Source: Deltaproteobacteria bacterium (GTDB taxonomy: Bacteria > Desulfobacterota > Binatia > UBA1149 > CAYXZP01). Taken from it: 64,000 nucleotides of DNA. The notes under the pieces are model-generated. The model saw only the letters and a program-made list of their open reading frames with translations. It was not told the origin of the DNA and did not search any database. The position numbers were made by a program, and so were the translations under genes. The DNA is taken from assembly GCA_046583365.1 (NCBI GenBank), contig JAYGCL010000038.1, positions 9,720 through 73,719 on the forward strand, given 5' to 3'. Positions 22,206-60,685 of the stretch are shown here, piece by piece. Every line of letters begins with the position of its first letter. The stretch's first letter is position 1.

Positions 22206-23441
22206 TTAGAAAAGAAGCACCTCGACTTCTTCTCCTGCCTGCAGTCCCTCGCTTGAGGGTTTGATGCAAACCATGCCGTCGGCACCGGCTATGGTTGAGA
22301 GTGCGGCAGACTTTCCTCTCAGTGGGACGGCCGTGGCCAGTGTCGTGCCGGGCTCCAGTTTGACGCGAACGTAGTTTTCGCGGCCTGCTGTTGCACCGAC
22401 AGCCGAGGCCAACAGCGCCCTTGTCCGTGGCCGTGTGAGCATCACCCTTTGCAGGGGTTCGCCTCCCAGGACCCGGATCAGGGTGGAGCCGAACAACGTA
22501 AAGACCACCGCCGCCGCGGCCGGGTTGCCGGGCAGCCCCATCACCGCCGAGCCCTTGCAGCTTGCCAGTATGGTTGGTTTGCCCGGTGCAATGGCCACGC
22601 CGTGAAACAGAGCCCTGGCTTCGGGCAGGGTTTTTATAGCGGCCATGGTGAGGTCTCGTGTACCCATCGAGCTTCCCCCCGAGACAAAAACGCAGTCGTT
22701 GGCCGTGGTTGCCTCGGCCAGGCAATCGCAAAGTTCACGTTTGCGGTCGCCGACCACTCCGTAGTCGACGACTATGGCGCCGAGGCTACGGGCCAGTGCG
22801 CCCAGGGCGTACTGGTTTACGTTCCTGACCTGGCCGGGCCTCAGTTCCTCGCCCGGTTCCACGATTTCGTCGCCGGTGACTATGATGCCCACCCGCGGCA
22901 GACGGTAGGCCGTGAACGTGGTTACCCCGATGCCGGTCAGCGCTCCTACATCACCTCCGCTGAGACGGCGGCCCTTCTGGAAAACCTGGTCTCCGATTTT
23001 CAGATCCTCTCCCAGACGTACGAGATTCTGACCTGGCACTGCTTCGGCCTTTATCAGCACCGTGCCCTCGATGGGTTCCTCGGTGTTTTCCACGATAACC
23101 ACCGCGTCGGCACCCGCCGGCATCATTGCGCCGGTCGAGATCGCCATGGCGCTGGCCTCGGACAGGCCGGGGGCGGCTTGTTCACCGGCGTTGATACGTC
23201 CGCTTACGGGTAGACTTACCGGTGAGGTTTCGGACGCACCGAAGGTGTCACAGGCACGCACGGCATAGCCGTCCATGTTGGAACGCTCAAAGTGGGGGAC
23301 GTTTTCGGCCGAACTGATGTCTTCGGCCACGACCCTCCCGCAGGCCGAGCGCGAGTCCACATTCTCGGTTTCCACCACCGGCATATTGCCGATGTGGTCG
23401 TAGGCCTGGTCGGCGCTTATGAGTTGGAAAAATGGTTTCAC
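22206..23441 (-). CDS. moeA: molybdopterin molybdenumtransferase MoeA (second paralog)
   Basis: Canonical MoeA blocks (ERSNMDGYAVR, GGSSMGTRD, PGNPAAA); 411 aa. Confidence 0.8.
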   Translation of the reverse strand: MKPFFQLISADQAYDHIGNMPVVETENVDSRSACGRVVAEDISSAENVPHFERSNMDGYAVRACDTFGASETSPVSLPVSGRINAGEQAAPGLSEASAMAISTGAMMPAGADAVVIVENTEEPIEGTVLIKAEAVPGQNLVRLGEDLKIGDQVFQKGRRLSGGDVGALTGIGVTTFTAYRLPRVGIIVTGDEIVEPGEELRPGQVRNVNQYALGALARSLGAIVVDYGVVGDRKRELCDCLAEATTANDCVFVSGGSSMGTRDLTMAAIKTLPEARALFHGVAIAPGKPTILASCKGSAVMGLPGNPAAAAVVFTLFGSTLIRVLGGEPLQRVMLTRPRTRALLASAVGATAGRENYVRVKLEPGTTLATAVPLRGKSAALSTIAGADGMVCIKPSSEGLQAGEEVEVLLF

Positions 23442-25009: not shown

Positions 25010-25357
25010 ATGGCCAAACAGGTTCTATCTGCTTCTTCCAAACGGAAGAAAGACGACGAGAGTCGCCAGCGGGAACTTCTGACCAGACTCAAGAAGATTG
25101 CCGAAAGTCTTGGTACGGAGGTACGCGAGGAACGTCTTTTTCGTGACCTCGGCTACAAAGCCAGAAGTGGTGTTTGTCGGGTGGATGGTCGCGAGGTGCT
25201 ATTGCTGGACCGCAACGTAAGTGTCACCGAACGGGTAGACACACTGCTGGATTTTCTTGCCGGCTGTGAGCTGGACACATCCGTCATCGACCCCGACCTC
25301 CGCGACCTGATTGTGGTGCGCGTGTCGCGCAGGGTCGCTGGGGCATCGGAGGTTTAG
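25010..25357 (+). CDS. small hypothetical protein (basic N-terminus), tightly coupled upstream of fur
   Basis: 115-aa ORF, stop 4 nt before the fur GTG; no family recognised. Confidence 0.4.
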   Translation: MAKQVLSASSKRKKDDESRQRELLTRLKKIAESLGTEVREERLFRDLGYKARSGVCRVDGREVLLLDRNVSVTERVDTLLDFLAGCELDTSVIDPDLRDLIVVRVSRRVAGASEV

Positions 25358-25361
25358 GGCA

Positions 25362-25796
25362 GTGACCACTAAGTTTGAGCGTTTCCACGCCTATATCGAC
25401 GAGCAGGGGTTAAAGTCTACCAAGCAGCGTGACGACATCGCCGTATGGTTTTTTTCCACCAAGGGCCACATCAGCGTCGACGACATTCATGCCAAGGTAA
25501 AACGTATCAATTCGCACATAGGGCTTTCGACGGTCTACCGGACGATGCGACTCTTGTGTGACGCAGGCCTGGTGCACGAGCGCCACTTTGGTGACGGTGA
25601 GGCCCTCTACGAGAACGTTGTTTCCCACCACGACCATTGTATCTGTACGTCCTGCGGGAAGATCATAGAGTTTGAGAATCCCAGGATAGAGGAACTGCAG
25701 GACGCCGTGGCCAGTCGTTTCGGGTTCGAATTGCACAGCCACAAGATGGAACTGTACGGGCTCTGCAAGGCTTGCCAGTCTTCCCGCCATAGCTGA
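25362..25796 (+). CDS. fur: Fur-family transcriptional regulator
   Basis: HHDHCICTSCGKIIEF...HSH...LYGLCKAC metal-site motifs and N-terminal winged helix (KSTKQRDDIAVWF); GTG start chosen to avoid overlap with preceding ORF. Confidence 0.8.
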   Translation: MTTKFERFHAYIDEQGLKSTKQRDDIAVWFFSTKGHISVDDIHAKVKRINSHIGLSTVYRTMRLLCDAGLVHERHFGDGEALYENVVSHHDHCICTSCGKIIEFENPRIEELQDAVASRFGFELHSHKMELYGLCKACQSSRHS

Positions 25797-25911: not shown

Positions 25912-28158
25912 GTGCGTGTACATGCAAAACCCAGGGCGGGTTACATTGCCCTCCTCATTTTCCTGGCTGCTCTGTTGGCGGCTCCCCTGCCGCTGGGGGC
26001 TTCGGGGCCGGATGCCGACGGCCGCGGGCTGGCCCCTGCCACTCAGTTGGGCATGTTGCGTATGGCCCTGCAGGAGTACCGGGAAGGGGTGGTCGGGGGT
26101 GTGGTCGTGGACGCCCACGAGTTGGACACGGCCGAAAGACTTCTCGACGAGTTGTCGGCCTCCGTCCCGTCTGCTGAATTGTCGGCCATACGTGGGTTGG
26201 TTGCCCGCCGTGCCAGCCGCGCCGATGTCGAGTCGGCCCTGTCGGTCTGGGTGGCATCCTATGGAGCCGGCATCAAGCCACCGCAGCCGTCCCTTGCGCC
26301 CTCGCTGTCCCAGGGACGCCGTCTCTTCGGCCGCTATTGCAGTGCCTGCCATGGAGACAATGGCGACGGCCGTGGACCTCTGGCGGCCGGCATCGAAGGT
26401 GTCAAGCCCGTAGATTTTTCCGACCAGGGTTTAATGGCTGGCGAGACGCCCGAGGAGTTCTTCCAGGCCATCACCATCGGCGTTCCGGGTACGGCCATGC
26501 CGTCCTGGGACACCGTTTTAACAGCCCAGGAACGTTGGGACCTGGTCGCCCATCTGTGGATGATCAGAACTCCCGACATCGATAACACTGAGCTTGAGTC
26601 CTGTTCTTCCTGCCATGTGGACAGTGGTGGTCTTGCGCCGCTCGACAAAAGTGACGGTGAGGTTCTCCTGCGGCTGATCAATTCAAGGGTGCATGTGCGG
26701 GAGGCGGTCGTTGATGCCGAACATGCAGTGGGTCTGGCCAGACGGATGGGTTTTGTGGTCCGTCGCCAGGGAGAGGGCCAGGGTACGGAGGTTGAACCCC
26801 GCCACGTGCTGGTTGCCCTCAGGCTGGTGGATGAAGAGTACCGCGATGCGGTGGCCGACGGCCGGGTCATAAACAGCGTGGAGTACGGCGAGACCCGGCT
26901 CTTTCTTGGCAGCCTTCTCGATGACCTGGCCAGCCTGGAGCGCCGGGGCCGGTCTGTGGGTGATGAGGCCGGCCGTCTGGCCATCGAACTCCAGGAGGCC
27001 GTCTACGCCAAGGCCGACCCCGCCGAGGTGTCCCGTCTTGCCGCCAGTCTGGAAGAGATTCTCGCAGAGGCCTTTGGCGGGGTGGTGGCCGGCCGGGGGT
27101 GGGAGGAGGTACGCGACCTTCTGGCCCGGGCCCAGGCCGAGACCTCCCCGTCGGCCGCTTCGGCACTGGTGTTGGATGCCTACATGGCCTTTGAGCCACT
27201 GGAGAAGAGGTTGGCGGTCAGGGACGCCGGCTTTACGGCTGCTATAGAGGCGGATTTTCTGGCCCTGCGCTCGCGTATCTCTGCCGGCCACAACGCCGAG
27301 GAGGATTTTGAACGACTTGGGGCCGGTCTTGTACGGGCCGAGGGGCTGCTGGCCTCGGGCCAGGGAGTTTGGGCAGCTTTTGCCAACGCCCTTCTCATCA
27401 TTCTTCGCGAAGGCCTTGAAGCCATACTCATCATAAGCGCCCTTGCCGCCTATCTCGGCAAGGGCGGGCACCTGGTTGCGCGGCGCTGGCTCTACGAGGG
27501 GGCTATGGTCGGGATCGTAGCCAGCCTGCTCACGGCACTGGCCTTTGAAGCTCTGCTCGGCGGTTTGCCCCTGGGCCAGGAAGCGCTCGAAGGCATAACC
27601 ATGCTGTTGGCCGCAGCCGTTCTGTTCTCGGTAAGTTACTGGCTTATCTCCAAACTCGAAGCCCGCCACTGGCAGGCTTACATTCGCAACCAACTCGACC
27701 GGGCTTTGGGGCGGGGGTCGCGGCTGGCCATGGCCGGGGTCGCCTTCCTGGCCGTATACCGGGAGGGCTTCGAGACGGTGCTGTTCTATCGGGCCCTGGT
27801 CGGGGAAGCCGGGGCGGTAACCGCCGTTGGTGCGGGTTTCGTCCTGGGCTGTCTGCTGCTGGTGGTAGTTTACGTGGCCATCGCGCGCTTCAGTGTGGCG
27901 ATTCCTCTGCGGCAGTTTTTCTCGATTACCGGTGGCCTGCTCTACCTGCTGGCCTTCCGCTTTACCGGTACGGGGATAGCCGAACTGCAGGAGGCCGGTA
28001 TGATCGCGGTTACAGAGGTGGCCTGGTGGCCACGCTTGTCGGTGTTGAGTATGGCACCGAACCTGGAGACCGCCCTGGCTCAGATGATCCTGGTGGTGGC
28101 GGCCCTGGTCGGTGTGGTGGTTATTGTTGTTGGCGGTCGGCGCCAGGCGACGGCCTGA
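25912..28158 (+). CDS. cytochrome c/FTR1-family iron permease (diheme cytochrome c domain fused to FTR1/EfeU-type permease)
   Basis: Signal peptide, two CxxCH heme motifs (CSACHGDNG, CSSCHVD), ~300-aa helical linker, then 7-TM FTR1 domain with two REGxE motifs (REGLEAIL, REGFETVL). Confidence 0.75.
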   Translation: MRVHAKPRAGYIALLIFLAALLAAPLPLGASGPDADGRGLAPATQLGMLRMALQEYREGVVGGVVVDAHELDTAERLLDELSASVPSAELSAIRGLVARRASRADVESALSVWVASYGAGIKPPQPSLAPSLSQGRRLFGRYCSACHGDNGDGRGPLAAGIEGVKPVDFSDQGLMAGETPEEFFQAITIGVPGTAMPSWDTVLTAQERWDLVAHLWMIRTPDIDNTELESCSSCHVDSGGLAPLDKSDGEVLLRLINSRVHVREAVVDAEHAVGLARRMGFVVRRQGEGQGTEVEPRHVLVALRLVDEEYRDAVADGRVINSVEYGETRLFLGSLLDDLASLERRGRSVGDEAGRLAIELQEAVYAKADPAEVSRLAASLEEILAEAFGGVVAGRGWEEVRDLLARAQAETSPSAASALVLDAYMAFEPLEKRLAVRDAGFTAAIEADFLALRSRISAGHNAEEDFERLGAGLVRAEGLLASGQGVWAAFANALLIILREGLEAILIISALAAYLGKGGHLVARRWLYEGAMVGIVASLLTALAFEALLGGLPLGQEALEGITMLLAAAVLFSVSYWLISKLEARHWQAYIRNQLDRALGRGSRLAMAGVAFLAVYREGFETVLFYRALVGEAGAVTAVGAGFVLGCLLLVVVYVAIARFSVAIPLRQFFSITGGLLYLLAFRFTGTGIAELQEAGMIAVTEVAWWPRLSVLSMAPNLETALAQMILVVAALVGVVVIVVGGRRQATA

Positions 28159-44144: not shown

Positions 44145-44184
44145 GGCGCGGGCAGGCCCCTACTGTCTACCATGGTTTGAGGGT

Positions 44185-44213
44185 TGACAACCTGACATCG
44201 CGTTACTAAGTAC
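44185..44213 (+). promoter_or_regulatory. candidate sigma-70-type promoter for grpE (TTGACA-17-TAAGTA)
   Basis: Perfect -35 hexamer TTGACA at 44185-44190, 17-bp spacer, -10-like TAAGTA at 44208-44213, about 30 nt upstream of the grpE ATG. No CIRCE or clear sigma-32 element seen. Confidence 0.3.
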
Positions 44214-47002: not shown

Positions 47003-48127
47003 GTGAGCAACCGCGATTACTACGAGATTCTGGGGGTCGGCCGCGAGGCCGGCCTCGACGAGATAAAGAAGGCCTACCGTAAGCTGGCGTTCAAGTACCA
47101 CCCCGACCGAAACCCTGAGGATAAGAACGGTGCCGAGACCCGTTTCAAGGAGGCCAGCGAGGCCTACCAGGTACTTTCTGATACTGACAAGCGCGGCCAG
47201 TACGACCGCTTCGGACATGCGGCCTTCGATGCCTCGCAAGGGTTCGGTGGTTTCGATTTTGGCAGTGGCGCTGACAGCGGTGTTTTTGAGGACGTACTGG
47301 GCGACCTGTTCGGCGATTTTTTCAGTGGCGGCCGTCGCCGCGGGCGTTCGCGGGGGGGAGTCGCCGGTGACGACCTTCGTTGTGACCTCAACATAACTTT
47401 TGAAGAAGCCGTAGGCGGCACCGAAAAGACCATCTCGGTACCGCGTACGGTAAAGTGCGAGGGTTGCCACGGCAGTGGTGCCAAGCCTGGAACCGAGTCC
47501 GAAACCTGTCCGGCCTGCCGGGGCGCGGGACAGGTGCGTTTCCAGCAAGGCTTCTTCCAGATCGCCAAGACCTGTGGTCAGTGTAACGGCGGCGGCAGCA
47601 TAATACGCACACCTTGTGTGACCTGTCGTGGGATGGGCACCACCCGCTCCATGCGCGAGCTTAAGGTCCGTGTGCCGGCCGGTGTGGATTACGGTTCGCG
47701 GCTGAAGCTGCGTGGAGAAGGTGAGGCCGGATACCGCGGGGGCCCCACCGGCGACCTGTACGTGGTTCTGGATGTCGGCCAACACCCCCTCTTCGTACGT
47801 GACGGCAGCCACATTGTTTGCGAACTGCCAGTAACCATGGTGCAGGCTGCTTTGGGTGCCAAGGTTGACGTGCCCACTCTTAGTGGTCTCGTCAAGATGA
47901 ACATTCCGGCGGGCACAGAGACCGGGCGTTTGTTCCGTTTGCGGGGCAAGGGGGTCAAAGGGCTCCGTGGCGGCAAGGGTGACCAGATTGTGCGCGTTAC
48001 GGTCGAGACCCCCAAGCACCTGACCAGGAAGCAGAAAGACATGCTCAAAAAGTTTGAGGAAAGTGCCACCAATGGGTCTTCGCTGGTTTCCGGGTTTGCC
48101 GAGAAAATCCGCGAACTGTTCGAGTAG
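47003..48127 (+). CDS. dnaJ: molecular chaperone DnaJ
   Basis: J domain (DYYEILGV...[16 protein letters not shown]), G/F region, four CxxCxGxG zinc-finger repeats. Confidence 0.95.
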
Positions 48128-48138
48128 AATACGTCGCC

Positions 48139-48840
48139 ATGGAATTTGATACCGAGGCCCTGCGCGAGTTTGTTGATGCCCAGATTGCTGCCCGTGGTCT
48201 GGTGGCCGAAGACCTCGGCATAGACTGGGACAAACTCCTGGGTGCGCTTGCCCACCCTCTTGCCGCCGAGGCTGTGGCCGAATCCATGGCCCGCGAACCG
48301 GACTCCGCGCAGGTAGGCCAGGACGCCCCGGACTTTACGCTCAGGAGGCTGGGCGATAGCGACGGCGAGCCGGTGTGTCTTGGCAGTCATTTTGGCCGCC
48401 GTCCGGTCGCCCTTGTCCTGGGCAGTTATACTTGACCGCCGTTTAGGGCCCAGGTCGGCGCCCTCAACGACACCTACCGTAAGTACCGGGACCAGGTTGA
48501 GTTCTACGTCGTCTATATCCGCGAGGTCCACCCCACCGATGGCTGGCAGGTCGACGACAACCAGCGCGACGGGGTGTTGTACCAGCAGCACCGCAACATC
48601 GAGGAGAGAATAGAGGTAGGGCAAACCTGTATGCTCGAGACTGGCCTGGAGATACCGGTTTTGGTCGACGAAATGGACAATGCCGTTGACCAGGCTTACA
48701 ACGGCAGCCCGGAACGCCTCGTGCTTGTGGGGCACGATGGCAAAATTGTTTTCAAGAGCGGTCCCGGACCGATGCTCTTTGTTCCCCGTGAGTGGGACCA
48801 GGCCATAGATGATTATCTTAAAGGCCAACGAGTGGCTTGA
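48139..48840 (+). CDS. candidate selenoprotein: deiodinase-like thioredoxin-fold protein with in-frame TGA (Sec) at 48433-48435
   Basis: ORFs 48139-48435 and 48574-48840 are in the same frame and separated by a single TGA. Read-through gives ...PVALVLGSYT-U-PPFRAQVGALNDTYRKYRDQVEFYVVYIREVHPTDGW..., closely resembling the iodothyronine-deiodinase active-site block GSCTUPPF...YIEEAHPSDGW. A hairpin with GGUC in its loop starts 9 nt after the TGA. Confidence 0.55.
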
Positions 48841-49805
48841 GTATTAACGGCGAGTTCGCCCTCATCGCAGCTATACGTCGGCTTGCCGACGGTTTGCCGG
48901 CAAGCGGCGTAGCCGTGGGTATCGGCGACGACGCGGCGTTGGTTCGCACTTCGGGTGCTACCTTGCTTAGCGTTGATGCGTTGATAGAGGGCGTGCATTT
49001 TCGCTCGGCCTGGCTGTCGCCGCGGGCTTTGGGACGGCGGGCCTTTCGCGTGGCGGTCTCCGATATCGCGGCCATGGGCGGCAAGCCGCGCCATGCCTTG
49101 CTGTCTCTGGCCTTTCCTAAAACCTATCCGGCCTCTGCCGTGCAATCCCTGGCCGACGGATTGTTGGCCGAGGCCGCAGCGGTCGGGGTTGCCGTGGTGG
49201 GCGGCAACCTGAGCCGGGCCCGGGCCCTTGCGATAAACGTCACTATAAGCGGGCAGGCCGCGGCCCGGTCTCTTACCCGCGCCCGGGCGAAGGTCGGCCA
49301 GGCGGTGTTCGTGACCGGAACCCTCGGCGATGCTGCGGCCGGGGTGGAACAACTCGGCAAGGGTAAGAGGCGGGGCCGGCTGGTGGAAGGTTACCGTTTG
49401 CCCCCGTTGCGTATCGACGTGGGCCGGGCCCTGGCCGCAAGGCCCGGGGTGGGTGCCGCCATCGACGTATCCGACGGCCTGGTGGCCGACCTCGCGCATA
49501 TATGCCGGGCCTCGTCGGTGGCCATAGGCCTGGACACGGCGGCAGTACCGGTCTCGACGGCCCTTGCCCGCTATGCCGGGAGCAGAGAGGCCCTCTCTTA
49601 CGCCCTGGCAGGCGGCGACGATTATGAGCTGGCATTTACCGCCCGGCCCCAGGAGGCCGCGGCCCTGGCCCGGATCTGCAAACGCCTGGGCTGCCGGTTG
49701 AGCCGTATCGGCAGCGTTGAAAAAGGCCGCCCCTCGGTGTTCGATCAAGACGGCTTGCGCCTGGACGGCGAGGGCCGCGGTGGCCACGACCATTTCGCGA
49801 TATGA
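48837..49805 (+). CDS. thiL: thiamine-monophosphate kinase
   Basis: AIR-synthase-related fold with GEFALIAAI...GIGDDAALV N-terminus typical of ThiL. Lacks the Cys/Sec-Gly-Cys-Lys N-terminal motif of SelD, so not called selenophosphate synthetase. Confidence 0.65.
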   Translation: MSINGEFALIAAIRRLADGLPASGVAVGIGDDAALVRTSGATLLSVDALIEGVHFRSAWLSPRALGRRAFRVAVSDIAAMGGKPRHALLSLAFPKTYPASAVQSLADGLLAEAAAVGVAVVGGNLSRARALAINVTISGQAAARSLTRARAKVGQAVFVTGTLGDAAAGVEQLGKGKRRGRLVEGYRLPPLRIDVGRALAARPGVGAAIDVSDGLVADLAHICRASSVAIGLDTAAVPVSTALARYAGSREALSYALAGGDDYELAFTARPQEAAALARICKRLGCRLSRIGSVEKGRPSVFDQDGLRLDGEGRGGHDHFAI

Positions 49806-50575
49806 ATAGAGACGCACTCAAGGAGCTGCTCCAACGCGTAAGCCAGGGCCAACTCAGCGCCGAGGAGGCAGCCGAAGAACTCAAGGACTTGCCGTTCTCA
49901 GACCTCGGATTTGCCCGCGTGGACAACCACCGTGAACTCAGAAACGGCATACCCGAGGTTATCTTTGCCGAGGGCAAGGACGCCGGACAGATCATCGGTA
50001 TCGCCCGCAGCATGGTTGAGCGCGGCCAGGGCGTGCTGGTCACCCGCCTGGACGCAGACAAAGCCGAGGAGCTTTCGGCGGCTCTTGACGGCTTCAGTTA
50101 CAACTCCACCGCCCGCATATCCCGTCGTGGCGGTTGTACGAACCCGTCGGGTACCGTGGCAACGGTGGCGGTGGTCTCGGCCGGCACCTCCGACCAGGCC
50201 GTGGCCGAAGAGGCCACCGAGACCCTGGCGTTTCTTGGCATCGAGGTGGTGAGGTCAGTCGATGTGGGTGTGGCCGGGATCCACCGTCTACTGGCCGACC
50301 GCCGCAGCATAAGCGAGGCCGCGGTGGCCATTGTGGTGGCTGGCATGGAGGGTGCCCTGCCCAGCGTTGTCGGTGGTCTGGTGGACCTGCCGGTGATCGC
50401 CGTTCCCACCAGTGTCGGTTACGGGTCGAGTTTCGGCGGTCTGGCTGCGCTTCTGGCCATGCTCAACTCATGTGCGGCCGGGGTTACGGTGGTCAACATC
50501 GACAACGGCTTCGGTGCCGCGGTGGCGGCGGCGGCGATTATAAGAAGCGGGCGGCGCGTGGCTGCCGGCGACTAG
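49802..50575 (+). CDS. larB: LarB-like PurE-family protein (nickel-pincer cofactor biosynthesis carboxylase/hydrolase, COG1691)
   Basis: N-terminal DxxRExRxGxPEVI block ([19 protein letters not shown]) plus PurE-like C-terminal half ([10 protein letters not shown]...[17 protein letters not shown]); ATGA overlap with thiL. Confidence 0.6.
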
Positions 50576-51330
50576 TCAGCCGGCGGCCACGCGATGGCCG
50601 TACGGTCGAAAGATCCCTGGGCGAGAAGCCCGGGCGGGGCTTCTTCGAGTACACTCCAATCCAGTTTCAATGTAGTCGTTGTGTTCTGCGTATAGTCGCG
50701 GATCAGAATGTTGCGGGGGCGAAGCCTGGAGCCGACCATGACAAAGTCGGAATTCTCCCTGATCCTGACCATGTTGTTCATAGTGTCTTTGTAGTACTTG
50801 ACCGAGAGTGGAACCATTCTGGCTTTGTCGAAAGAGATAACGAAGATCGTGTAGGGTAGGCCGTCGGGTACGTACAGGGTCACGGTTTTCTCACTGCTGG
50901 TTTCATCGGAGACGAAAGCTGGTCCCTGTTCGAAAGCCCAGAATGGGAACAGTTCCATTGCACGCAGGTCGGTGCCGCCCAGTGGGTCGTCTATGCTGAT
51001 GGCCACCGGCTTTTTGCCTTTTTTGCGTACCGCCTTGCCGTCATTCCAGTCCAACGGCAGCAGGGAGCGCCAACCCGAGCTGCGCAGGGCGAAAAACTGC
51101 CGGCCGGCCTGGGGTGCCACCACGAGGATGGCCTGGTCGTGGCTGCCGTCGCTACGGCTGAGCTTTATGTCGGCACGCACCGTACGGTTGTAGGTGCCCA
51201 TACGCACGGTGCGGCTTATGAAAGCCTCGAGTTCGCTTCCCACGGCGGCGGCGCCTGTCGGGGTCAGCGAGACAAAGACGAGTGCCGCGGCGGTTGCGGC
51301 AAATGCCGGTAGCTTAGCCTCCCAATTCAT
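50572..51330 (-). CDS. secreted LolA-like / outer-membrane lipoprotein-sorting-fold protein (hypothetical)
   Basis: Signal peptide MNWEAKLPAFAATAAALVFVSL...; beta-rich sequence with a loose resemblance to LolA-like carrier proteins; start overlaps the moaA stop by 17 nt. Confidence 0.35.
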   Translation of the reverse strand: MNWEAKLPAFAATAAALVFVSLTPTGAAAVGSELEAFISRTVRMGTYNRTVRADIKLSRSDGSHDQAILVVAPQAGRQFFALRSSGWRSLLPLDWNDGKAVRKKGKKPVAISIDDPLGGTDLRAMELFPFWAFEQGPAFVSDETSSEKTVTLYVPDGLPYTIFVISFDKARMVPLSVKYYKDTMNNMVRIRENSDFVMVGSRLRPRNILIRDYTQNTTTTLKLDWSVLEEAPPGLLAQGSFDRTAIAWPPAD

Positions 51331-52339
51331 ACATCTCTATCCTTGGTTTGCCCGCTGTTGGTTTGTCCAACTCCTCGGCCCGTTCTTCAGAGTAGCGGTC
51401 TTTGCGCAACGACCATACCGATGAGATCAAATGGGCCAGGTGGTCGTCGCTGGCCCCGGTCCTCAGTGGGTCCTTCAAGTCGGTGCCATCGGTTGCGAAC
51501 AGACAGGTAACCAGGCGGCCGTCGGTGGACAGGCGGGCGCGTGTGCACTGGCCACAAAACGGTCGCGTGACAGAAGCGATAACGCCCACTTCGCCGCCAC
51601 CGTCTTTGTAGCGGTAGCGTTCGGCCACCTCGCCGGCGTAGTTGGGTGCGATAGCCTCAAGCGGAAAAGTCCGGTCGATAGTTTCAACTATTTCGGTGGC
51701 ACTGACCACGTCGTCGGAGGTCCAATGGTTTTTGGTGCCGACGTCCATAAACTCGATGAAACGCAGGATGTGGCCAGAGCCACGAAAGTGTCGCGCCGTC
51801 TCCACTATGGTGTGGTCGTTGAGGCCGCGGATTATCACGGAATTTATTTTTATCGGTGTGAGCCCGGCTGCCGCTGCGGCTTCGACCCCCGCCAACACCT
51901 GGGCCACTTGCGCGTTGCGGCCGTTCATACGGCCGAAGGTCTCCTCGTCGACCGCGTCAAGGCTTACCGAGATGCGGTTCAAACCTGCGGCGGCAAGGGC
52001 TTGGGCGTGTTGGGCCAGCAGGTAGCCGTTGGTGGTAAGGGTGAGGTCGCGGAGGCCGCCGATGGCCGCGAGCCTTTCTATGAGACGGGGGAGTTGGGCT
52101 CTCAGCAAGGGCTCGCCGCCGGTTATTCTCACCTTCTCGACACCGCCGCGAACGAAGATACGTACCAGCCGCTCTATCTCCTCGAAGCTCAACAACTCGG
52201 CCCTCGGCACAAACTCGTAGTGTTCGCCGTAGACCTCGGCCGGCATGCAGTAGGGGCAGCGGAAGTTACAGCGGTCGGTGACCGAGACTCGAAGGTCGCC
52301 GATTCTGCGGCCAAGCCGGTCTGTCGGGATGGTGGTCAT
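51314..52339 (-). CDS. moaA: GTP 3',8-cyclase MoaA (radical SAM)
   Basis: CNFRCPYCMP radical-SAM cysteine motif, C-terminal second Fe-S cysteines (CGQCTRARLSTDGRLVTCLF). Confidence 0.9.
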   Translation of the reverse strand: MTTIPTDRLGRRIGDLRVSVTDRCNFRCPYCMPAEVYGEHYEFVPRAELLSFEEIERLVRIFVRGGVEKVRITGGEPLLRAQLPRLIERLAAIGGLRDLTLTTNGYLLAQHAQALAAAGLNRISVSLDAVDEETFGRMNGRNAQVAQVLAGVEAAAAAGLTPIKINSVIIRGLNDHTIVETARHFRGSGHILRFIEFMDVGTKNHWTSDDVVSATEIVETIDRTFPLEAIAPNYAGEVAERYRYKDGGGEVGVIASVTRPFCGQCTRARLSTDGRLVTCLFATDGTDLKDPLRTGASDDHLAHLISSVWSLRKDRYSEERAEELDKPTAGKPRIEMYELGG

Positions 52340-55847: not shown

Positions 55848-58280
55848 CTACCGGCCGCGGACTTCCAAGGCTTTGAGGTTGAGGTAGGGCAGATAGGCCG
55901 GCACCAGGCGCAGGTCGATGCGTCTGAGCCAGTGGCCGGGTAGCCTCAAGGTGGCGTTGGGGTTGCCGGTAAAATCTATCAAGCCCTGCCGCGACAACAG
56001 CGTTCCGTTCTCGGTGGTTACGGCTACGCGGTAAACGAGGGCCTCACGGGCCCGCGGCAGGTTGGCAACCACACGCAGAAATGCCGCCGGCTGGGGCGTG
56101 TCGAAACTGACACTGCAATCAACGGCTACCGCCCGCCCACTCCAACGCTGCCCACGGCGCCAGCGAAACATTGCGGAGCCGGCCGGTCTCTCGGGCTGTG
56201 GGCGGCACAGCAGACGGCCGCCTAAAGAGGCCAGCAGGGGGCCTTGGCCCACTGTTGAGGCTGCGGCAGTGGAGCGCGAGGGACGGATGCCGGTCTTTGG
56301 TCTCGAGCGCTCGGCGCAAAGTCTGAAACGGCCGTCGTCGTAGAGGGTGGCTGAGCGTCGGTCGCAGGGTTGGTCCTCCAGGACCGAGTGGGTTACCCGG
56401 TAGCGTCCCACGGCCGCGTTGCGCAGCCGTCGGCTGCCGCCGGCCAGTCCGATGATGATGGCGTTGGCCTCCATGCGGCGCTGGGCCTGGCGCCGTCCTC
56501 GCGAGAACACCACGGTACCGCGGTCGGAAAAGGCCAGCACCGACCGTTGGCTGTAGGCCGGGATAAGTTCGGCCAGACCGCTGGCGGCGGCCAGGATGGC
56601 TGTGGGGGGAAGTTTTGCGACCTCTTCCAGAAGCGCGAGAGTCTCGGTGTCGGGCCGCAGCTTGCCCGCTTCCCGGTCTACGGATGAGAGACGGTGCCAG
56701 GGTGTGGAGCCAGCGGCCAAGCCGACAACCAACAGGGCGAGCAGCAGGGTTGGGCCGAGGGTACGGCCCTTGAAGGGGGCAAGACGGGCCGGGGCCTCAA
56801 GCAGCAGTGCACCCAGGAGAAGTCCGAAGGGGATAGCCCACAGCGCCCGGTAGGCCATCCAGGGCAGTACCAGACGGCCGAAGGCCGGGGCCAGCCAGGG
56901 CAAAAAAGCCAGGGCTAAAAAGGGCAGGCTGGAGGCGAGAAGAAACCCCGCCCACAGCCGGCGGCGCTCGGCCAGGGCCAGGGCCAGGGCCAGCAGGGAG
57001 AGAATCAGCAGCGGGTCGGCAAGCAGGCGGGGGTTTACCACCGGACCGCCGGCAGGAAGCGCCAGGAGCCGTTTCATGCGCAGGTGGCTTCTCAGCACCG
57101 GGTGGGTGGAGTCAGGGCCCGGGGCCGTTGGCGAGACGGTCGTGGCCACCCCGGTACGAAGGGCCATGTCATCTCTGGTTTCAAAGCCCAGCCAGGCAGG
57201 CACCGTGCCGACAAGGATGGCTATGGTCACAACGGCGGCCAACGGTCTGGCCGCCGCCGTCAGTGATTCTTTCCCCCAGGTAACCACCCACACCGCGAAG
57301 GCAAAAAGGGTGACCAGTACCAGCATGTATACAAGAGCATGGCTGAGGGCTACCGCGGCCAGGGCCAGGCCGAGGGCGGCCCAGGCCATAGGGCTCTCGC
57401 GCCGGCCGTTTTTTATGCGTTCGATGGCCATGGCCAGGGCTACCGGTGCGAATATAAGCAGAGCCGTGGTCTTGTCTTCGGCCAGGCGGCCGAACAGCGG
57501 GTAGCGGTCGGGTGAAAAGAAGGGGTAGCGGGTAGCCAGCAGTACGGCCATCGAAGTCAGCGTTGCTACACAGGCCGAAGGCGTGGATGTGAACACGGCG
57601 CGCGATAGAAAAAAGGCGGCCGATGCACAAAGCGGGGCCAGCAGTACCGGGGCCATGGTTTGAAAAACTGCTGGTCCCGAAGCCCCGGCCAGGGCCTTTA
57701 CGGAGGCCAGGGACAGCAACCAGGCATTGTGGGCAAAACGGGGAACTACCAGTCCGTTTGCGAAAAACGGTTCGCTCCAGTCAAGCGGGGTCCTCTCGGC
57801 CAGGGCGCCGAGGTAGGCCATGTACCACATGCGGTCGCGGGCTATGTTCTCCCCGCCGGCCGCCATCAAGGCCGCCAGCAGAGCCACCGCCACGACCGCC
57901 ACGACCGCGCCCACGGCCAGGCGGCTTTGTTTGTCAGCTGGCCTGGAGGTTGGTCTCAACGACGGCTGCAGCAGGGCCAGCAGGACTGAGGCGGCCAGCA
58001 TCAAGGCCACGATGGCCTTGATCGACAGGGACCATGACACCGCCAGGGGACCGGCAAGGCCAATCATCGCTACCGACAGGGTCAGCGCCCTTGCCGGAAT
58101 CTCCAGGGGATGGGAACTGGGGCCGCCCAGTATACGGTCGAGCAGATAGCCGGGCAGCAGCAGTAGTGCGGCGGCCGCAGCCGGCAGGGCCAGGGCTTGT
58201 AGGCCCAGGGGGCCGGCCATAGCGGTCCCCCACACAAGCGCAAGGCCCACCAGCAGACCCGCCCGCCCGCCGGGCTTCAT
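55848..58280 (-). CDS. large polytopic membrane protein, GT-C-like glycosyltransferase fold (paralog A)
   Basis: 810 aa; about 13 TM helices; first periplasmic loop DRMWYMAYLG...PRFAHNAWL; conserved C-terminal soluble domain shared with paralog B (LPWMAYRALWAIPF, SDRGTVVFS, LRLVPAYLPYLNLKALEV). Confidence 0.5.
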   Translation of the reverse strand: MKPGGRAGLLVGLALVWGTAMAGPLGLQALALPAAAAALLLLPGYLLDRILGGPSSHPLEIPARALTLSVAMIGLAGPLAVSWSLSIKAIVALMLAASVLLALLQPSLRPTSRPADKQSRLAVGAVVAVVAVALLAALMAAGGENIARDRMWYMAYLGALAERTPLDWSEPFFANGLVVPRFAHNAWLLSLASVKALAGASGPAVFQTMAPVLLAPLCASAAFFLSRAVFTSTPSACVATLTSMAVLLATRYPFFSPDRYPLFGRLAEDKTTALLIFAPVALAMAIERIKNGRRESPMAWAALGLALAAVALSHALVYMLVLVTLFAFAVWVVTWGKESLTAAARPLAAVVTIAILVGTVPAWLGFETRDDMALRTGVATTVSPTAPGPDSTHPVLRSHLRMKRLLALPAGGPVVNPRLLADPLLILSLLALALALAERRRLWAGFLLASSLPFLALAFLPWLAPAFGRLVLPWMAYRALWAIPFGLLLGALLLEAPARLAPFKGRTLGPTLLLALLVVGLAAGSTPWHRLSSVDREAGKLRPDTETLALLEEVAKLPPTAILAAASGLAELIPAYSQRSVLAFSDRGTVVFSRGRRQAQRRMEANAIIIGLAGGSRRLRNAAVGRYRVTHSVLEDQPCDRRSATLYDDGRFRLCAERSRPKTGIRPSRSTAAASTVGQGPLLASLGGRLLCRPQPERPAGSAMFRWRRGQRWSGRAVAVDCSVSFDTPQPAAFLRVVANLPRAREALVYRVAVTTENGTLLSRQGLIDFTGNPNATLRLPGHWLRRIDLRLVPAYLPYLNLKALEVRGR

Positions 58281-60685
58281 TTCAGGGGTTGCCCGCTTTC
58301 GTCGTCAATGGAGAGGCTGAGGTTTCTGAGCTTTAAGAAGGGTAGAAAGTTTGGCACTACGCTGAGCCGCAGCGTGTCTATGGTCTGGTGGGGCAGGGCC
58401 AGCGTGAACTTTTGCCGGGAATGCAGTCTGCGGGTGGTGGAAAGACGCCAGCGTTGTTTGCCGTTTTTACTGCCGACTGCCGTTATGCTCAGCTCCTCGA
58501 CCGCGTTGCCGAGCAAGGGGCGCAGGCTTAACTCGGTGGCAGTGAAATAACCGTCGCCCACGATCTTACGGGTTCTTATGGTGCACAGCATGTTGCCGAA
58601 ACGAGCCGACCAGGGGCCCGGGCGGGGCCAGTGTAAAAAGGGCGAATCTTCGTCCAGGGGCGGCGTGCACTCGGCCCTCAGGGGTGAGGTGGGGTCGAAG
58701 AGCATGGAGCCCAGGTCCACCGTTTTGCTCTGTGCCCCTGGGACTTGGGCCGTGGCAACCCCCATGTCCTTTGCCGCGGCGGCCGGAGAGAAACTACACA
58801 GTTCAAAGCCGGCAATTTTGTATATCTGTCGTCCGCAATAACGCGAGGCCGCCGTACCGGGTTCGAAAAGTACGTGGGTGGGTTGGGGCACTCCGCCAAC
58901 AGGGGTCCAGGTGCCGGCAAGAATAGACGCGCGTGCACGTAATCGGTTTTCACCCTCGCTGCGAGAGCCGGAAAAAACAATGGTGCCGCGGTCGGAAAGT
59001 GCCAGCACCCGCTTGCCGGCCACTGCCGGTATACGCTCGCTTATTTCGGGAGCCGCCGCCACCACGGCGTCAACGGGCAGCGCGGCCACCCTCTTCATGG
59101 TTGCGCGAAAGGCTCCGGGGCCCGGCAGAGCGAGGTCGTCACGTTCGGGGCTGAAACGTCCGCCAATGGCTTTGACCGACCAGGGCATGGCCAGGCTGAC
59201 GATCACAAGTACAGCGATCCAGCGGTTGGAGCGCGTCATGCCCCCTACCCAGTCGATGGCCAGGGCCAGTAGCAGGGTAAAGGGTATTGCCCAGAGCAAG
59301 CGGTAGACCATCCAGGGAAAGATAAAGCGCCCGGCCAGCACGGCCAGGGGAGGTATGAAGGCGATGGCCAGCGGAACCAGGGTGGCGGGGAGCAGAAACA
59401 TTCGTTCGGTGGGCCTTCGTCGCCACACCAGGGGCAGCGAGACCAGGGCTAGAATCATCAGCGGGTGGAGCAGGAGACGGGGCTTTACCATGTAGGTACC
59501 GTCTGCAAACTCCACCAGGCGGCCGCGGGACCAGTGCACACGCACCACCGGGTGGTCGCGGTTGGCCAGCGATGCGCCGTCATTCTCAAGCTGGGAGTGT
59601 GCGCCCAACCCCGTCCACGCGGGATAGATGGCGCCGGCCATTATTACCGCAAGGGCCAGGCCGGCCACAGAGCGTTTGCTGCGTTCGCTCCAGACCATCA
59701 GCAAAGCAAAAGGCAGCAACGTGACCAGGGCGATCGCGTATATGAGGGCGTGGGTGGTGGCCAGTACGGCCGCGGCCAGGGCCAGTACTATGAGCCAGCG
59801 CCGCCAGCCCCCCGCGAGCCGTGAGACGAAGGCTGCGGTGACCACCGGCAGTACTATCATTACGGCAAACAGCTTGTCTTCGGGCAGCCTGGTCACGACC
59901 GGGAAGAGACTGCCGCCGGTCCACAGCAGTCCGCCGGCCAGGGCCGCGAGCCAGGGCAGACGGCCGGGGCCGAACACCGAACGGGCCAGGAGTATAAGAG
60001 CGGAGAAGGCCACCGGCACCAGCCCCGGTGCCGAGGCCCGTTCGTAAAGCCAGATGGGGCTGACCGCGGCCCGGTCGGCCCACACGGCCATCATCATCAG
60101 CCAGGAGTTGAAGGCGAAACGGGGTGGGCTGTGGCCGCTGCCCAAAAAGGGCTCGGCCAGGGAGACCACCGGGCTCTGCATGTAGGAGCGGATGTAGGCC
60201 AGGTACCACCAGCGGTCTACGCTGCCGGTGGGAGTAAGGGCCCAGGCCGCACCGGCGATGAGGATGGCAAGCAGCACGACCAGGGTCACCACCAGAGTGC
60301 CCGCGCGGGCCTCGGTGGGACCCAGGCGTTCGTCGCTGCGGCGTCGGAACAAGGCGGCAGCGGTGGCCAATACCAGGATGGTCGTAATGTAGGCCGGGAC
60401 GAAGGCGCCCAGCGGCAGGCCCAGCGCCGCGGGTAAGGCCAGGGCGGGGATCAGAACGGCAATCGAGCTGACGAAGTCTATGCTCAGGCGTTCGCTGGGC
60501 GGGCGGCCTGAGCCCGTGCCGGTGGCCATAGAGACAAGGCGGCCGGGAACCAGGAACAGGCCCAGGCTCACCAGGCCTGCCCTCACGTAGGGGTTCCACA
60601 GTACCGTAGTCAGCAGGCCGGGGATGGTGATGGCCAGTATCCCCGCCATGGCTGTGGCCATGATCATCCAGCGTCTCAGAGTCAT
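58277..60685 (-). CDS. large polytopic membrane protein, GT-C-like glycosyltransferase fold (paralog B)
   Basis: 802 aa; same architecture and shared blocks (DRWWYLAYI...PRFAFNSWL, FPWMVYRLLWAIPF, SDRGTIVFS, LRLSVVPNFLPFLKLRNL); 4-nt overlap with paralog A. Confidence 0.5.
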   Translation of the reverse strand: MTLRRWMIMATAMAGILAITIPGLLTTVLWNPYVRAGLVSLGLFLVPGRLVSMATGTGSGRPPSERLSIDFVSSIAVLIPALALPAALGLPLGAFVPAYITTILVLATAAALFRRRSDERLGPTEARAGTLVVTLVVLLAILIAGAAWALTPTGSVDRWWYLAYIRSYMQSPVVSLAEPFLGSGHSPPRFAFNSWLMMMAVWADRAAVSPIWLYERASAPGLVPVAFSALILLARSVFGPGRLPWLAALAGGLLWTGGSLFPVVTRLPEDKLFAVMIVLPVVTAAFVSRLAGGWRRWLIVLALAAAVLATTHALIYAIALVTLLPFALLMVWSERSKRSVAGLALAVIMAGAIYPAWTGLGAHSQLENDGASLANRDHPVVRVHWSRGRLVEFADGTYMVKPRLLLHPLMILALVSLPLVWRRRPTERMFLLPATLVPLAIAFIPPLAVLAGRFIFPWMVYRLLWAIPFTLLLALAIDWVGGMTRSNRWIAVLVIVSLAMPWSVKAIGGRFSPERDDLALPGPGAFRATMKRVAALPVDAVVAAAPEISERIPAVAGKRVLALSDRGTIVFSGSRSEGENRLRARASILAGTWTPVGGVPQPTHVLFEPGTAASRYCGRQIYKIAGFELCSFSPAAAAKDMGVATAQVPGAQSKTVDLGSMLFDPTSPLRAECTPPLDEDSPFLHWPRPGPWSARFGNMLCTIRTRKIVGDGYFTATELSLRPLLGNAVEELSITAVGSKNGKQRWRLSTTRRLHSRQKFTLALPHQTIDTLRLSVVPNFLPFLKLRNLSLSIDDESGQPLK

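What the first reader, a model, noticed from the sequence alone, without database searches (positions are those of the whole stretch)
48139..48840. In-frame TGA at the redox-centre position of a deiodinase-like thioredoxin-fold ORF: candidate selenoprotein in the dnaK-dnaJ-thiL gene string
Two ORF-track pieces (48139-48435, 48574-48840) share one frame and are separated only by TGA 48433-48435. Read-through gives GSYT-U-PPF...FYVVYIREVHPTDGW, closely resembling the iodothyronine-deiodinase active-site block (GSCTUPPF...YIEEAHPSDGW); Sec would sit where the catalytic Sec/Cys lies. Eleven nt downstream a hairpin (AGGGC 48445-48449 paired with GCCCT 48460-48464) presents GGUC in its loop, reminiscent of bacterial SECIS elements. 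Bacterial DIO-like selenoproteins are rare and functionally uncharacterised. This one starts 11 nt after dnaJ and overlaps thiL by 4 nt, implying co-expression with the heat-shock chaperones.
Basis: partly seen in the sequence, partly recalled or inferred. Interest (0 to 1): 0.75.

Follow-up and report, generated by a model that had tools for sequence, protein, structure and literature searches.

The report
Bacterial deiodinase-like selenoprotein gene
This is very probably a real selenoprotein gene, a bacterial relative of the thyroid-hormone deiodinases whose in-frame TGA encodes selenocysteine, but the family has been known from sequence surveys since 2005 and its function is still untested.

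Summary
Window 48139-48840 (+) is one reading frame of 233 codons, interrupted only by TGA 48433-48435 within GSYT-TGA-PPF.

The read-through protein matches Pfam T4_deiodinase across the TGA (105 bits, cut-off 27). It also matches the mouse Dio3 and Dio2 crystal structures (E 4e-22 and 2e-17). The TGA aligns with their catalytic Sec170.

88 of 89 distinct family sequences (the window, 80 species-representative genomes, metagenome contigs) have TGA at this codon; one has TGC. The genomes are labelled Binatia, Myxococcota, Dehalococcoidia and Entotheonella.

A hairpin 10 nt after the TGA, with an invariant loop G, is kept by compensatory changes in 6 of 7 pairs. It is paired in 88.9% of cells, against 18-54% in slid controls.

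TGA is the ordinary stop for 26 of 47 window genes, so this is not an alternative genetic code.

The Dio proton-relay residues are conserved. The thyronine clamp Arg275 and distal Cys239 are not. Cys164 is invariant instead.

The dnaJ/thiL placement is real but occurs in none of 88 related loci. selA, selB, selD and tRNA-Sec are absent from the window, and the rest of the genome could not be reached.

Verdict: a new member of a known, uncharacterised selenoprotein family.

The parts
48139..48840 (+). Coding sequence of the deiodinase-like selenoprotein: 233 codons (Sec at codon 99) plus the terminal TGA at 48838-48840
   Evidence: Single frame. Pfam PF00837 scores 104.9 bits over residues 54-219, spanning the TGA. 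PDB matches are 4TR3 at E 3.9e-22 and 9H48 at E 1.9e-17. The AF2 model has pLDDT 82.6 and its best structural matches are 9H48 and 4TR3.
48433..48435 (+). In-frame TGA, the proposed Sec99 codon; it aligns with Sec170 of mouse Dio3
   Evidence: TGA is at the same codon in 88 of 89 distinct family sequences, including the window.
48440..48469 (+). SECIS-like hairpin. Outer stem 48440-48443 with 48466-48469. Main stem 48445-48451 with 48457-48464, with C48459 bulged. Apical loop AGGUC at 48452-48456.
   Evidence: Folds. The family alignment A3 shows 6 of 7 pairs with compensatory changes, 88.9% of cells paired and an invariant loop G. The window fits a bulged register with 7 of 7 pairs.
48424..48432 (+). 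Codons for Ser96, Tyr97 and Thr98. Ser96 and Thr98 correspond to Dio3 Ser167 and Thr169 of the proton relay.
   Evidence: Alignment to 4TR3. Conserved in 88-89 of 89 family sequences. The relay residues are named in PMC11592359.
48514..48546 (+). Codons Tyr126 to Trp136 (YIREVHPTDGW). Tyr126, Glu129, His131 and Trp136 correspond to Dio3 Tyr197, Glu200, His202 and Trp207.
48589..48591 (+). His151 codon, corresponding to Dio3 His219; 91% conserved in the family
48628..48630 (+). Cys164 codon (TGT), invariant in the family; candidate resolving thiol (inferred, not shown)
   Evidence: Present in 89 of 89 sequences. It lies in helix 154-168 of the model. It has no counterpart in Dio3, and Dio3 Cys239 aligns with Ile172.
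47003..48127 (+). dnaJ, ending 11 nt before the selenoprotein start codon
   Evidence: Pfam DnaJ, DnaJ_C and DnaJ_CXXCXGXG. NCBIfam TIGR02349 scores 426 bits.
48837..49805 (+). thiL (thiamine-phosphate kinase, not selD), overlapping the selenoprotein stop codon by 4 nt
   Evidence: TIGR01379 thiL scores 276 bits (cut-off 184). The selD model scores only 75 bits (cut-off 125).

Best explanation
Window 48139-48840 encodes a soluble, probably cytoplasmic, thioredoxin-fold selenoenzyme of the prokaryotic deiodinase-like family.

Decoding. During translation, UGA 48433-48435 is read as selenocysteine. The hairpin that starts 9-10 nt downstream, with a G in its apical loop, would recruit SelB carrying Sec-tRNA(Sec), as bacterial SECIS elements do.

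Shown here: the frame, the family membership, TGA at this codon in 88 of 89 distinct family sequences, and the covarying hairpin.

Inferred: actual Sec insertion, and the chemistry that follows.

Proposed chemistry. The Sec99 selenolate attacks an electrophilic atom of a small substrate. That atom could be a halogen on a phenolic ring, as in the deiodinases, or a peroxide oxygen or other oxidant, as in peroxiredoxins. The proton would be delivered through the conserved Ser96-Thr98-Tyr126-Glu129-His131-His151 relay. The resulting Se-X or Se-OH would be resolved by the invariant Cys164 to a selenenyl-sulfide, which a thioredoxin-type reductant then reduces.

The substrate is not thyroid hormone. 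The carboxylate clamp Arg275 and the distal Cys239 of Dio3 are missing.

In this genome the gene is packed between dnaJ and thiL and is probably co-transcribed with them. That arrangement is not conserved in other genomes.
For: - Frame and TGA.
- Family: Pfam PF00837 at 104.9 bits against a cut-off of 27, spanning the TGA. phmmer to 4TR3 gives E 3.9e-22 with the TGA codon aligned on Sec170, and to 9H48 gives E 1.9e-17. Foldseek's top two PDB matches are 9H48 and 4TR3, with target-normalised TM-scores of 0.78 and 0.72.
- Conserved recoding: all 80 genome loci and 7 metagenome loci carry TGA at this codon, with strong conservation on both sides; one close homolog has TGC. More distant homologs have Cys.
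- SECIS: 72 of 82 distinct sequences form at least 6 of 7 pairs in one register, and 77 of 82 in one of three registers. The first loop base is always G. The synonymous third base of the invariant Arg103 codon tracks its pairing partner: CGC with CGC 30 times, CGG with NCC 30 times, CGU with CAC, CAU or UAC 4 times. A distant Cys homolog (TGT) lacks the hairpin.
- Genetic code: TGA ends 26 of 47 Pfam-supported genes in the window.
- Catalytic residues: with the relay residues named in PMC11592359.
- Packing: 11-nt gap to dnaJ, 4-nt overlap with thiL, and terminator-like sites no more frequent than in shuffled sequence.
Against: - No selA, selB, selD or tRNA-Sec is in the window. The rest of the genome was unavailable, so the decoding machinery is unverified for this organism.
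- No Rfam SECIS model matches.
- The hairpin's free energy is not unusual for this G+C-rich sequence (z = -0.47).
- The window's own hairpin departs from the family consensus register: 4 of 7 pairs there, 7 of 7 only with a bulge.
- Part of the covariation follows lineage (Myxococcota-type against Dehalococcoidia-type), so the number of independent events is smaller than the cell counts suggest.
- No biochemical data exist for any bacterial member. The role of Cys164 and the type of substrate are inference only.
Confidence: 0.9

Rival explanations
1. Pseudogene or sequencing error: the TGA is a recent nonsense mutation or a miscalled base in a gene that normally has Cys here.
For: One close homolog has TGC at this codon (L087). 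Many distant homologs have Cys. No Sec machinery is seen in the window.
Against: TGA is at the identical codon in 87 other independently assembled sequences from several phyla. The sequence downstream is fully conserved and the frame is intact. The hairpin covaries. Coding-type G+C bias (third codon position richer than second) is at least as strong downstream of the TGA as upstream.
Confidence: 0.01
2. Genuine stop codon: two separate genes, a 98-aa N-terminal protein and an independently initiated protein of about 88-134 aa, as gene callers annotate them.
For: Public gene calls split the orthologs exactly this way, into pieces of 96-106 aa and 138-139 aa.
Against: The split would cut the thioredoxin fold at its active-site turn. 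A single Pfam domain and the single Dio3 alignment both run across the TGA. The downstream pieces start at whichever GTG or ATG happens to occur first, with no conserved start codon. Cys forms are single polypeptides.
Confidence: 0.02
3. The UGA is read through as a standard amino acid (Trp, Cys or Gly), by an alternative genetic code or near-cognate suppression, and not as selenocysteine.
For: One database entry (P0007) shows W at this position, evidently because another code was used for translation. Sec machinery is not demonstrated for this genome.
Against: TGA is the commonest ordinary stop in the window, ending 26 of 47 genes. The position is the catalytic Sec of the deiodinases and is Cys in homologs, which is the classic Sec/Cys pair. 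A conserved hairpin with a loop G at SECIS distance has no role in simple read-through.
Confidence: 0.04
4. Functional rival within the selenoprotein reading: the enzyme is a stress-related peroxidase or thiol-disulfide reductase of the peroxiredoxin/ResA type, expressed with the dnaK operon, and has no dehalogenating chemistry.
For: There are weak AhpC-TSA (31 bits) and Redoxin (25 bits) hits. ResA, Bcp and AhpE structures follow Dio2 and Dio3 in the fold search. The gene sits in the grpE-dnaK-dnaJ string in this genome. Reviews assume redox roles for most bacterial Trx-fold selenoproteins (PMC1088965, PMC13188914).
Against: The deiodinase-specific insertion and the six relay residues are all retained. 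Within this subfamily Sec is almost never replaced by Cys (88 of 89). The dnaK linkage is absent from all 88 related loci.
Confidence: 0.4

Closest known systems
Prokaryotic deiodinase-like selenoproteins (Pfam PF00837). First reported from the Sargasso Sea metagenome (Zhang, Fomenko and Gladyshev 2005, PMC1088965). Counted in GOS as 22 Sec and 21 Cys forms (PMC2398784). Listed in the 2022 and 2026 reviews (PMC9312934, PMC13188914).
   Same: Same Pfam family. In-frame UGA at the redox centre. A bacterial-type hairpin with a G in the apical loop directly after the UGA. Cys-containing homologs exist. Function unknown.
   Different: The reviews list the family motif as UxxC; this subfamily has U-P-P-F, as the animal enzymes do. 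It also has a helical N-terminal extension of about 55 residues and an invariant Cys164. It scores below the cut-off of NCBI's curated deiodinase_rel model NF038285 (182 bits against 250) and matches only that model's C-terminal half.
Mammalian iodothyronine deiodinases Dio3 and Dio2 (catalytic cores, PDB 4TR3/4TR4 and 9H48)
   Same: About 30% identity over the whole catalytic domain. GS-x-T-U-PPF and Y-I-x-E-x-H-P-[ST]-D-G-W motifs. The Dio-specific insertion. Relay residues Ser, Thr, Tyr, Glu, His, His. Sec at the same position.
   Different: No N-terminal membrane anchor. The Arg275/Lys241 substrate clamp is replaced by Pro209 (other homologs have M, L, V, A or P; only P0009 has R). The distal Cys239 is replaced by Ile172. 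Cys168 is replaced by Tyr97. The SECIS lies in the coding region rather than in a 3' UTR. Thyronines are unlikely substrates.
Escherichia coli fdhF SECIS, the archetypal bacterial Sec insertion element (from my own knowledge of Zinoni 1990 and Liu 1998, both cited in PMC1088965's reference list)
   Same: A stem-loop immediately 3' of the UGA inside the coding sequence. The family consensus is a 17-nt hairpin (7 bp plus a 3-nt loop) after a 10-nt spacer. This is close to the 17-nt minimal upper stem-loop 11 nt from the UGA described for fdhF. G/U in the apical loop; the window's loop reads AGGUC.
   Different: Different sequence. No bulged U equivalent was verified. No match to any Rfam model. 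SelB binding is untested.
Peroxiredoxins and ResA/TlpA-type thiol-disulfide oxidoreductases
   Same: Thioredoxin fold with the nucleophile at the N-terminus of helix 1. Weak AhpC-TSA and Redoxin hits. Next-best structural neighbours.
   Different: Lacks the CxxC or PxxxTxxC motif in register. Carries the deiodinase insertion. Sequence similarity is far weaker than to the deiodinases.

Membership tests
Prokaryotic deiodinase-like selenoprotein (PF00837) | Significant match to the T4_deiodinase domain that continues across the UGA | tested here: met
   104.9 bits against a cut-off of 27, over residues 54-219. 4TR3 at E 3.9e-22.
Prokaryotic deiodinase-like selenoprotein (PF00837) | In-frame UGA at the catalytic Sec/Cys position, with Cys in homologs | tested here: met
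   The UGA aligns with Dio3 Sec170. 88 of 89 distinct family sequences have TGA and one has TGC. 75 more distant representatives have Cys.
Prokaryotic deiodinase-like selenoprotein (PF00837) | Bacterial SECIS: a stem-loop directly downstream of the UGA with a G in a small apical loop | tested here: met
   The hairpin occupies positions +11 to +27 after the UGA. The first loop base is an invariant G. 6 of 7 pairs show compensatory changes. 88.9% of cells are paired against 18-54% in slid controls.
Prokaryotic deiodinase-like selenoprotein (PF00837) | Sec-decoding machinery (selA, selB, selC/tRNA-Sec, selD) in the same genome | not testable with these tools
   None is in the 64-kb window. The source genome is not among the species-representative genomes (best hit 62%). 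Its only other trace is a 10.7-kb Logan contig.
Prokaryotic deiodinase-like selenoprotein (PF00837) | Selenium actually incorporated into the protein | not testable with these tools
   This needs 75Se labelling or mass spectrometry.
NCBIfam NF038285 deiodinase_rel (347-residue model) | Score above the curated cut-off over the full model | tested here: not met
   182.3 bits against a cut-off of 250. Only model positions 176-340 are matched.
Animal iodothyronine deiodinases (DIO1-3) | Thioredoxin fold with the Dio-specific insertion and the Ser/Thr/Tyr/Glu/His/His proton relay | tested here: met
   Ser96, Thr98, Tyr126, Glu129, His131 and His151 align with Dio3 Ser167, Thr169, Tyr197, Glu200, His202 and His219, and are 91-100% conserved. 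The top fold matches are 9H48 and 4TR3.
Animal iodothyronine deiodinases (DIO1-3) | Thyronine carboxylate clamp (Dio3 Arg275 / Dio2 Lys241) | tested here: not met
   It aligns with Pro209. Among the homologs the position is M, L, V, A or P, and R only in P0009.
Animal iodothyronine deiodinases (DIO1-3) | Distal Cys that forms the selenenyl-sulfide (Dio3 Cys239 / Dio2 Cys205) | tested here: not met
   It aligns with Ile172. A different Cys (Cys164) is invariant instead.
Animal iodothyronine deiodinases (DIO1-3) | N-terminal transmembrane anchor | tested here: not met
   Residues 1-55 are acidic and amphipathic, are modelled as four short helices, and contain no long hydrophobic stretch. No dedicated transmembrane predictor was run.
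Peroxiredoxin (AhpC-TSA / Redoxin) | Match above the Pfam cut-off and the PxxxTxxC active-site motif | tested here: inconclusive
   AhpC-TSA scores 31.1 bits (cut-off 26) and Redoxin 25.1 bits (cut-off 26.6). Ser96 sits at -3 from Sec, but there is no Pro at -7. The deiodinase match is far stronger.

The most novel reading that the evidence does not exclude
This almost obligately Sec-containing clade (88 of 89 sequences) keeps the full deiodinase catalytic apparatus but lacks the thyronine-binding residues. It could be a cofactor-free, selenium-dependent reductive dehalogenase for iodinated or brominated phenolic compounds. It occurs in MAGs labelled Binatia, Myxococcota, Dehalococcoidia and Entotheonella. 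That would be a third type of bacterial reductive dehalogenation, alongside the corrinoid reductive dehalogenases and the flavin-dependent iodotyrosine deiodinases, and it could represent the ancestral chemistry of the animal thyroid-hormone deiodinases.
Probability: 0.2. Interest if true: 0.75.

Novelty: new member of a known kind. Interest (0 to 1): 0.3.

Why it matters
In practical terms, gene callers split this gene and its orthologs at the TGA into two 'hypothetical proteins'. The locus should instead be annotated as one selenoprotein.

Scientifically, bacterial deiodinase homologs have been listed as selenoproteins since 2005, yet none has a tested function. This analysis defines a coherent subfamily with four useful properties:

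- Sec is almost never replaced by Cys.
- The SECIS is compact and covaries.
- The deiodinase proton relay is intact.
- Cys164 is invariant, while the thyronine-binding residues are absent.

Together these give concrete constructs and mutants for testing whether deiodinase-type dehalogenation predates animals. The specific dnaJ-thiL placement has only local interest.

Tried and rejected
- **Rfam.** The whole window at gathering thresholds gave no hit. Positions 48400-48520 at E <= 10 gave only a chance Guanidine-III fragment on the other strand.
- **Single-sequence folding.** The hairpin forms, but its z-score is -0.47, so it is not evidence on its own.
- **Sec machinery.** ARAGORN found no tRNA in the window and no tRNA-Sec in 60 related loci. 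Pfam or NCBIfam scans of 58 window ORFs found no SelA, SelB or SelD. The AIRS-domain gene after the selenoprotein is thiL, not selD. Crude motif scans for SelA, SelB and SelD in the window plus 1.34 Mb of loci found nothing credible.
- **Other selenoprotein genes in the window.** A scan for in-frame TGA codons with coding-like sequence on both sides found only this gene, antisense shadows and ordinary adjacent genes.
- **Conserved synteny.** tblastn of 12 window neighbours against all loci gave one marginal thiL hit 10 kb from the gene. Neighbour clustering showed only lineage-specific partners: cupin, Mo-oxidoreductase, cyclase, dienelactone hydrolase, a glyoxalase-superfamily protein and TPP enzymes in Dehalococcoidia, and BioB and APH in Binatia. 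I rejected these as a basis for inferring function.
- **Heat-shock control.** There is no CIRCE element in the window. Promoter- and terminator-like sites are at background frequency.
- **Source genome.** An exact look-up of FumC found only a 10.7-kb Logan contig from run SRR27277814, so taxonomy and the rest of the genome stayed out of reach.
- DNA for the Cys homologs P0002 and P0006 was unavailable.
Full report
**1. The observation**

Positions 48139-48840 on the + strand translate as one frame of 233 codons with a single internal stop, TGA at 48433-48435. The context is ...PVALVLGSYT*PPFRAQVGALN...FYVVYIREVHPTDGW.... The two ORF pieces in the mechanical ORF list (48139-48435 and 48574-48840) are in that same frame.

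The gene starts 11 nt after the dnaJ stop (48125-48127). Its own stop (48838-48840) overlaps the TTG start of the next gene by 4 nt.

There is one small correction. The hairpin arms it named (AGGGC 48445-48449 and GCCCT 48460-48464) begin 9 nt after the TGA codon. The best fold extends them by two C-G pairs to a 7-bp stem with one bulged C and the 5-nt loop AGGUC, plus an outer CGUU/AACG stem.

**2. What the protein is**

With Cys placed at the TGA, the protein matches Pfam T4_deiodinase (PF00837) at 104.9 bits against a cut-off of 27, over residues 54-219, so the match runs across the TGA. AhpC-TSA and Redoxin are far weaker.

Against the PDB, only two sequences match: the mouse Dio3 catalytic core (4TR3, E 3.9e-22) and Dio2 (9H48, E 1.9e-17). 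The TGA codon aligns with the catalytic Sec170 of Dio3.

An AlphaFold model (mean pLDDT 82.6) has 9H48 and 4TR3 as its two best structural matches. ResA-type oxidoreductases and peroxiredoxins follow.

NCBI's curated 'deiodinase_rel' model is matched only over its C-terminal half and below its cut-off (182 against 250 bits). This is therefore a different subfamily from the one NCBI modelled.

**3. Is the TGA meant to be read?**

The first protein search returned full-length homologs with Cys at the position. It also returned three fragments of about 138 aa that start just after it. The contigs encoding those fragments all have an upstream ORF in the same frame, separated by TGA, within GSYT-TGA-PPFRAQVG.

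A scan of one genome per species found 406 relatives. All 80 loci kept carry TGA at this codon. By record title they are MAGs of Candidatus Binatia, Myxococcota, Dehalococcoidia and other Chloroflexota (one titled SAR202), Entotheonella and some others.

Among 89 distinct family sequences, including the window, 88 have TGA and one has TGC. Sequence on both sides is strongly conserved.

In the window, TGA is the ordinary stop of 26 of 47 Pfam-supported genes, so an alternative genetic code is excluded.

A sequencing error, a pseudogene and a two-gene arrangement are all incompatible with this pattern.

**4. The hairpin**

The 45 nt that start at the TGA align without gaps across 82 distinct sequences (alignment A3). 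A 7-bp helix occupies alignment columns 14-20 and 24-30, that is, positions +11 to +17 and +21 to +27 after the UGA.

- It is paired in 88.9% of cells, against 18-54% when the 3' partners are slid by 1-3 columns.
- 6 of 7 pairs show changes on both sides.
- None of 500 shuffles reaches the observed covariation score.
- The first loop base is G in all sequences. The loops are GGC, GGU or GUC in 79 of 82.

One detail separates RNA-level selection from protein-level selection. The synonymous third base of the invariant Arg103 codon follows its pairing partner: CGC with CGC 30 times, CGG with NCC 30 times, CGU with CAC, CAU or UAC 4 times.

The window's own hairpin uses a shifted register with a bulge (7 of 7 pairs) rather than the consensus register (4 of 7).

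The one close Cys form (TGC) still has the hairpin, which suggests a recent Sec-to-Cys conversion. A distant Cys homolog (TGT) has none.

The consensus geometry is a 17-nt stem-loop after a 10-nt spacer with G/U in the loop. From my own knowledge, this is close to the minimal fdhF SECIS of E. coli.

Three caveats apply. The fold energy of the single sequence is unremarkable (z = -0.47). No Rfam model matches. Part of the covariation tracks lineage.

**5. Catalytic anatomy**

The six residues proposed to form the deiodinase proton relay are named in PMC11592359. In Dio3 numbering they are Ser167, Thr169, Tyr197, Glu200, His202 and His219. They align with Ser96, Thr98, Tyr126, Glu129, His131 and His151, which are 91-100% conserved in the family.

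The Dio-specific insertion between the HPxDGW motif and the following helix is present, with only a 3-residue length difference.

Three things are not conserved:

- The substrate clamp Arg275 aligns with Pro209.
- The distal Cys239 aligns with Ile172.
- There is no N-terminal membrane anchor. Instead there is an acidic helical extension of about 55 residues, modelled with low confidence.

A different cysteine, Cys164, in the helix that follows the insertion, is invariant in 89 of 89 sequences.

From this I infer a deiodinase/peroxiredoxin-type cycle. The Sec99 selenolate attacks an electrophilic atom. A proton arrives through the relay. Cys164 resolves the Se-X intermediate. A thiol reductant then regenerates the enzyme. 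The substrate is not a thyronine.

I cannot decide whether it is a halogenated aromatic or an oxidant. I put roughly 40% on each, with the remainder on something else. The near-total absence of Cys replacement within the subfamily, and the retention of deiodinase-specific elements, lean toward halogen chemistry. General precedent for bacterial Trx-fold selenoproteins leans toward redox.

**6. Genomic context**

The neighbours are, in order:

| Gene | Strand |
|---|---|
| recO | - |
| grpE | + |
| dnaK | + |
| dnaJ | + |
| the selenoprotein gene | + |
| thiL (TIGR01379, 276 bits; not selD) | + |
| larB | + |
| an unassigned ORF | - |
| moaA | - |

The 11-nt gap and the two 4-nt overlaps leave no room for a terminator, and none stands out. 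Co-transcription with dnaJ and thiL is therefore likely here.

However, none of 88 related loci has dnaK, dnaJ or thiL beside the gene. Their neighbours differ by lineage. There is no CIRCE element. The chaperone linkage is therefore a local accident of gene order and not a clue to function.

**7. Sec machinery**

The window contains no tRNA gene and no selA, selB or selD.

The source genome is not among the species representatives; the best ortholog is 62% identical. An exact look-up of a window protein found only a 10.7-kb contig from sequencing run SRR27277814.

The conclusion that Sec is inserted therefore rests on comparative evidence and not on the machinery.

**8. Comparison with what is known**

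Bacterial deiodinase-like selenoproteins were first described in the Sargasso Sea selenoproteome, with both Sec and Cys forms and bacterial SECIS elements (PMC1088965). They were counted again in GOS as 22 Sec and 21 Cys forms (PMC2398784). They are listed in the 2022 and 2026 reviews as functionally uncharacterised (PMC9312934 and PMC13188914). Full-text searches found no experimental study of a bacterial member.

The wider superfamily is large: 11,507 cluster representatives at E <= 1e-3. Many are long fusion proteins, and most full-length ones have Cys at the active site.

The window gene is thus a new member of a known kind. The reviews give the family motif as UxxC, whereas this subfamily has UPPF, as the animal enzymes do.

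**9. Verdict**

I give 0.9 confidence that this is a Sec-decoded deiodinase-like selenoprotein gene.

Novelty is low, because the family was described in 2005. The interest score is 0.3.

What remains of interest is the open question of function. This subfamily makes that question directly testable, through its obligate Sec, intact deiodinase relay, invariant Cys164 and compact SECIS.

Noticed in passing
L087:2289-2996 (Cys form, TGC) and L090:146-853 (Cys form, TGT): The close Cys homolog keeps the same GGGCCCAGGCUGGGACCC hairpin as its Sec relatives, which suggests a recent Sec-to-Cys conversion that left a 'fossil' SECIS. The distant Cys homolog has no hairpin.
   Followed up: partly
L088:183-683 (protein P0007): The database protein has Trp at the TGA codon, so the source translated this contig with a different genetic code. 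It is in fact another TGA (Sec) form.
   Followed up: yes
L022:3005-3817: A contig binned as 'Nitrosopumilus sp.' (an archaeon) carries a bacterial-type ortholog. Its hairpin has compensatory changes (GGGCGGA-GGU-UCCGACCC). This is probably a binning contaminant.
   Followed up: no
L006:1-630 compared with L004 and L005: L006 has an unrelated N-terminal region, but from the active site onward it is identical to L004 and L005. This may be a chimeric assembly or a recombinant.
   Followed up: no
window 49802-50575 (+): larB (nickel-pincer cofactor biosynthesis; NF033503, 277 bits) overlaps the end of thiL by 4 nt. No larC or larE was found among the window ORFs scanned.
   Followed up: no
window 20574-22199 (-), 22206-23441 (-), 51314-52339 (-): Two tandem moeA paralogs, one carrying an extra C-terminal region of about 130 residues, plus moaA elsewhere in the window. 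Molybdenum-cofactor genes are prominent here.
   Followed up: no
window 1457-3409 (+), 55848-58280 (-), 58277-60685 (-): Three long ORFs (650, 810 and 802 aa) with coding-like composition match nothing in Pfam or NCBIfam. The last two are adjacent and overlap by 4 nt.
   Followed up: no
window 25912-28158 (+): A 748-aa fusion of a cytochrome c domain with an FTR1 iron permease, next to a Fur-family regulator at 25311-25796.
   Followed up: no
window 44184-44212 (+): A TTGACA-17 nt-TAAGTA promoter-like site lies in the recO/grpE divergent intergenic region. The window has no CIRCE element, so the control of this dnaK operon is unclear.
   Followed up: partly
Dehalococcoidia loci, e.g. L039:8315-9880, L078:10909-11832, L080:10736-11449: In a subset of Dehalococcoidia the ortholog sits beside a cupin, a sulfite-oxidase-type molybdoenzyme, a putative cyclase and a dienelactone hydrolase (each in 8-10 loci). 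This is lineage-specific and of unknown meaning.
   Followed up: partly
60 of the loci L007-L076 (about 1.1 Mb in total): ARAGORN reported only two tRNA genes in about 1.1 Mb of related loci, fewer than I would expect.
   Followed up: no
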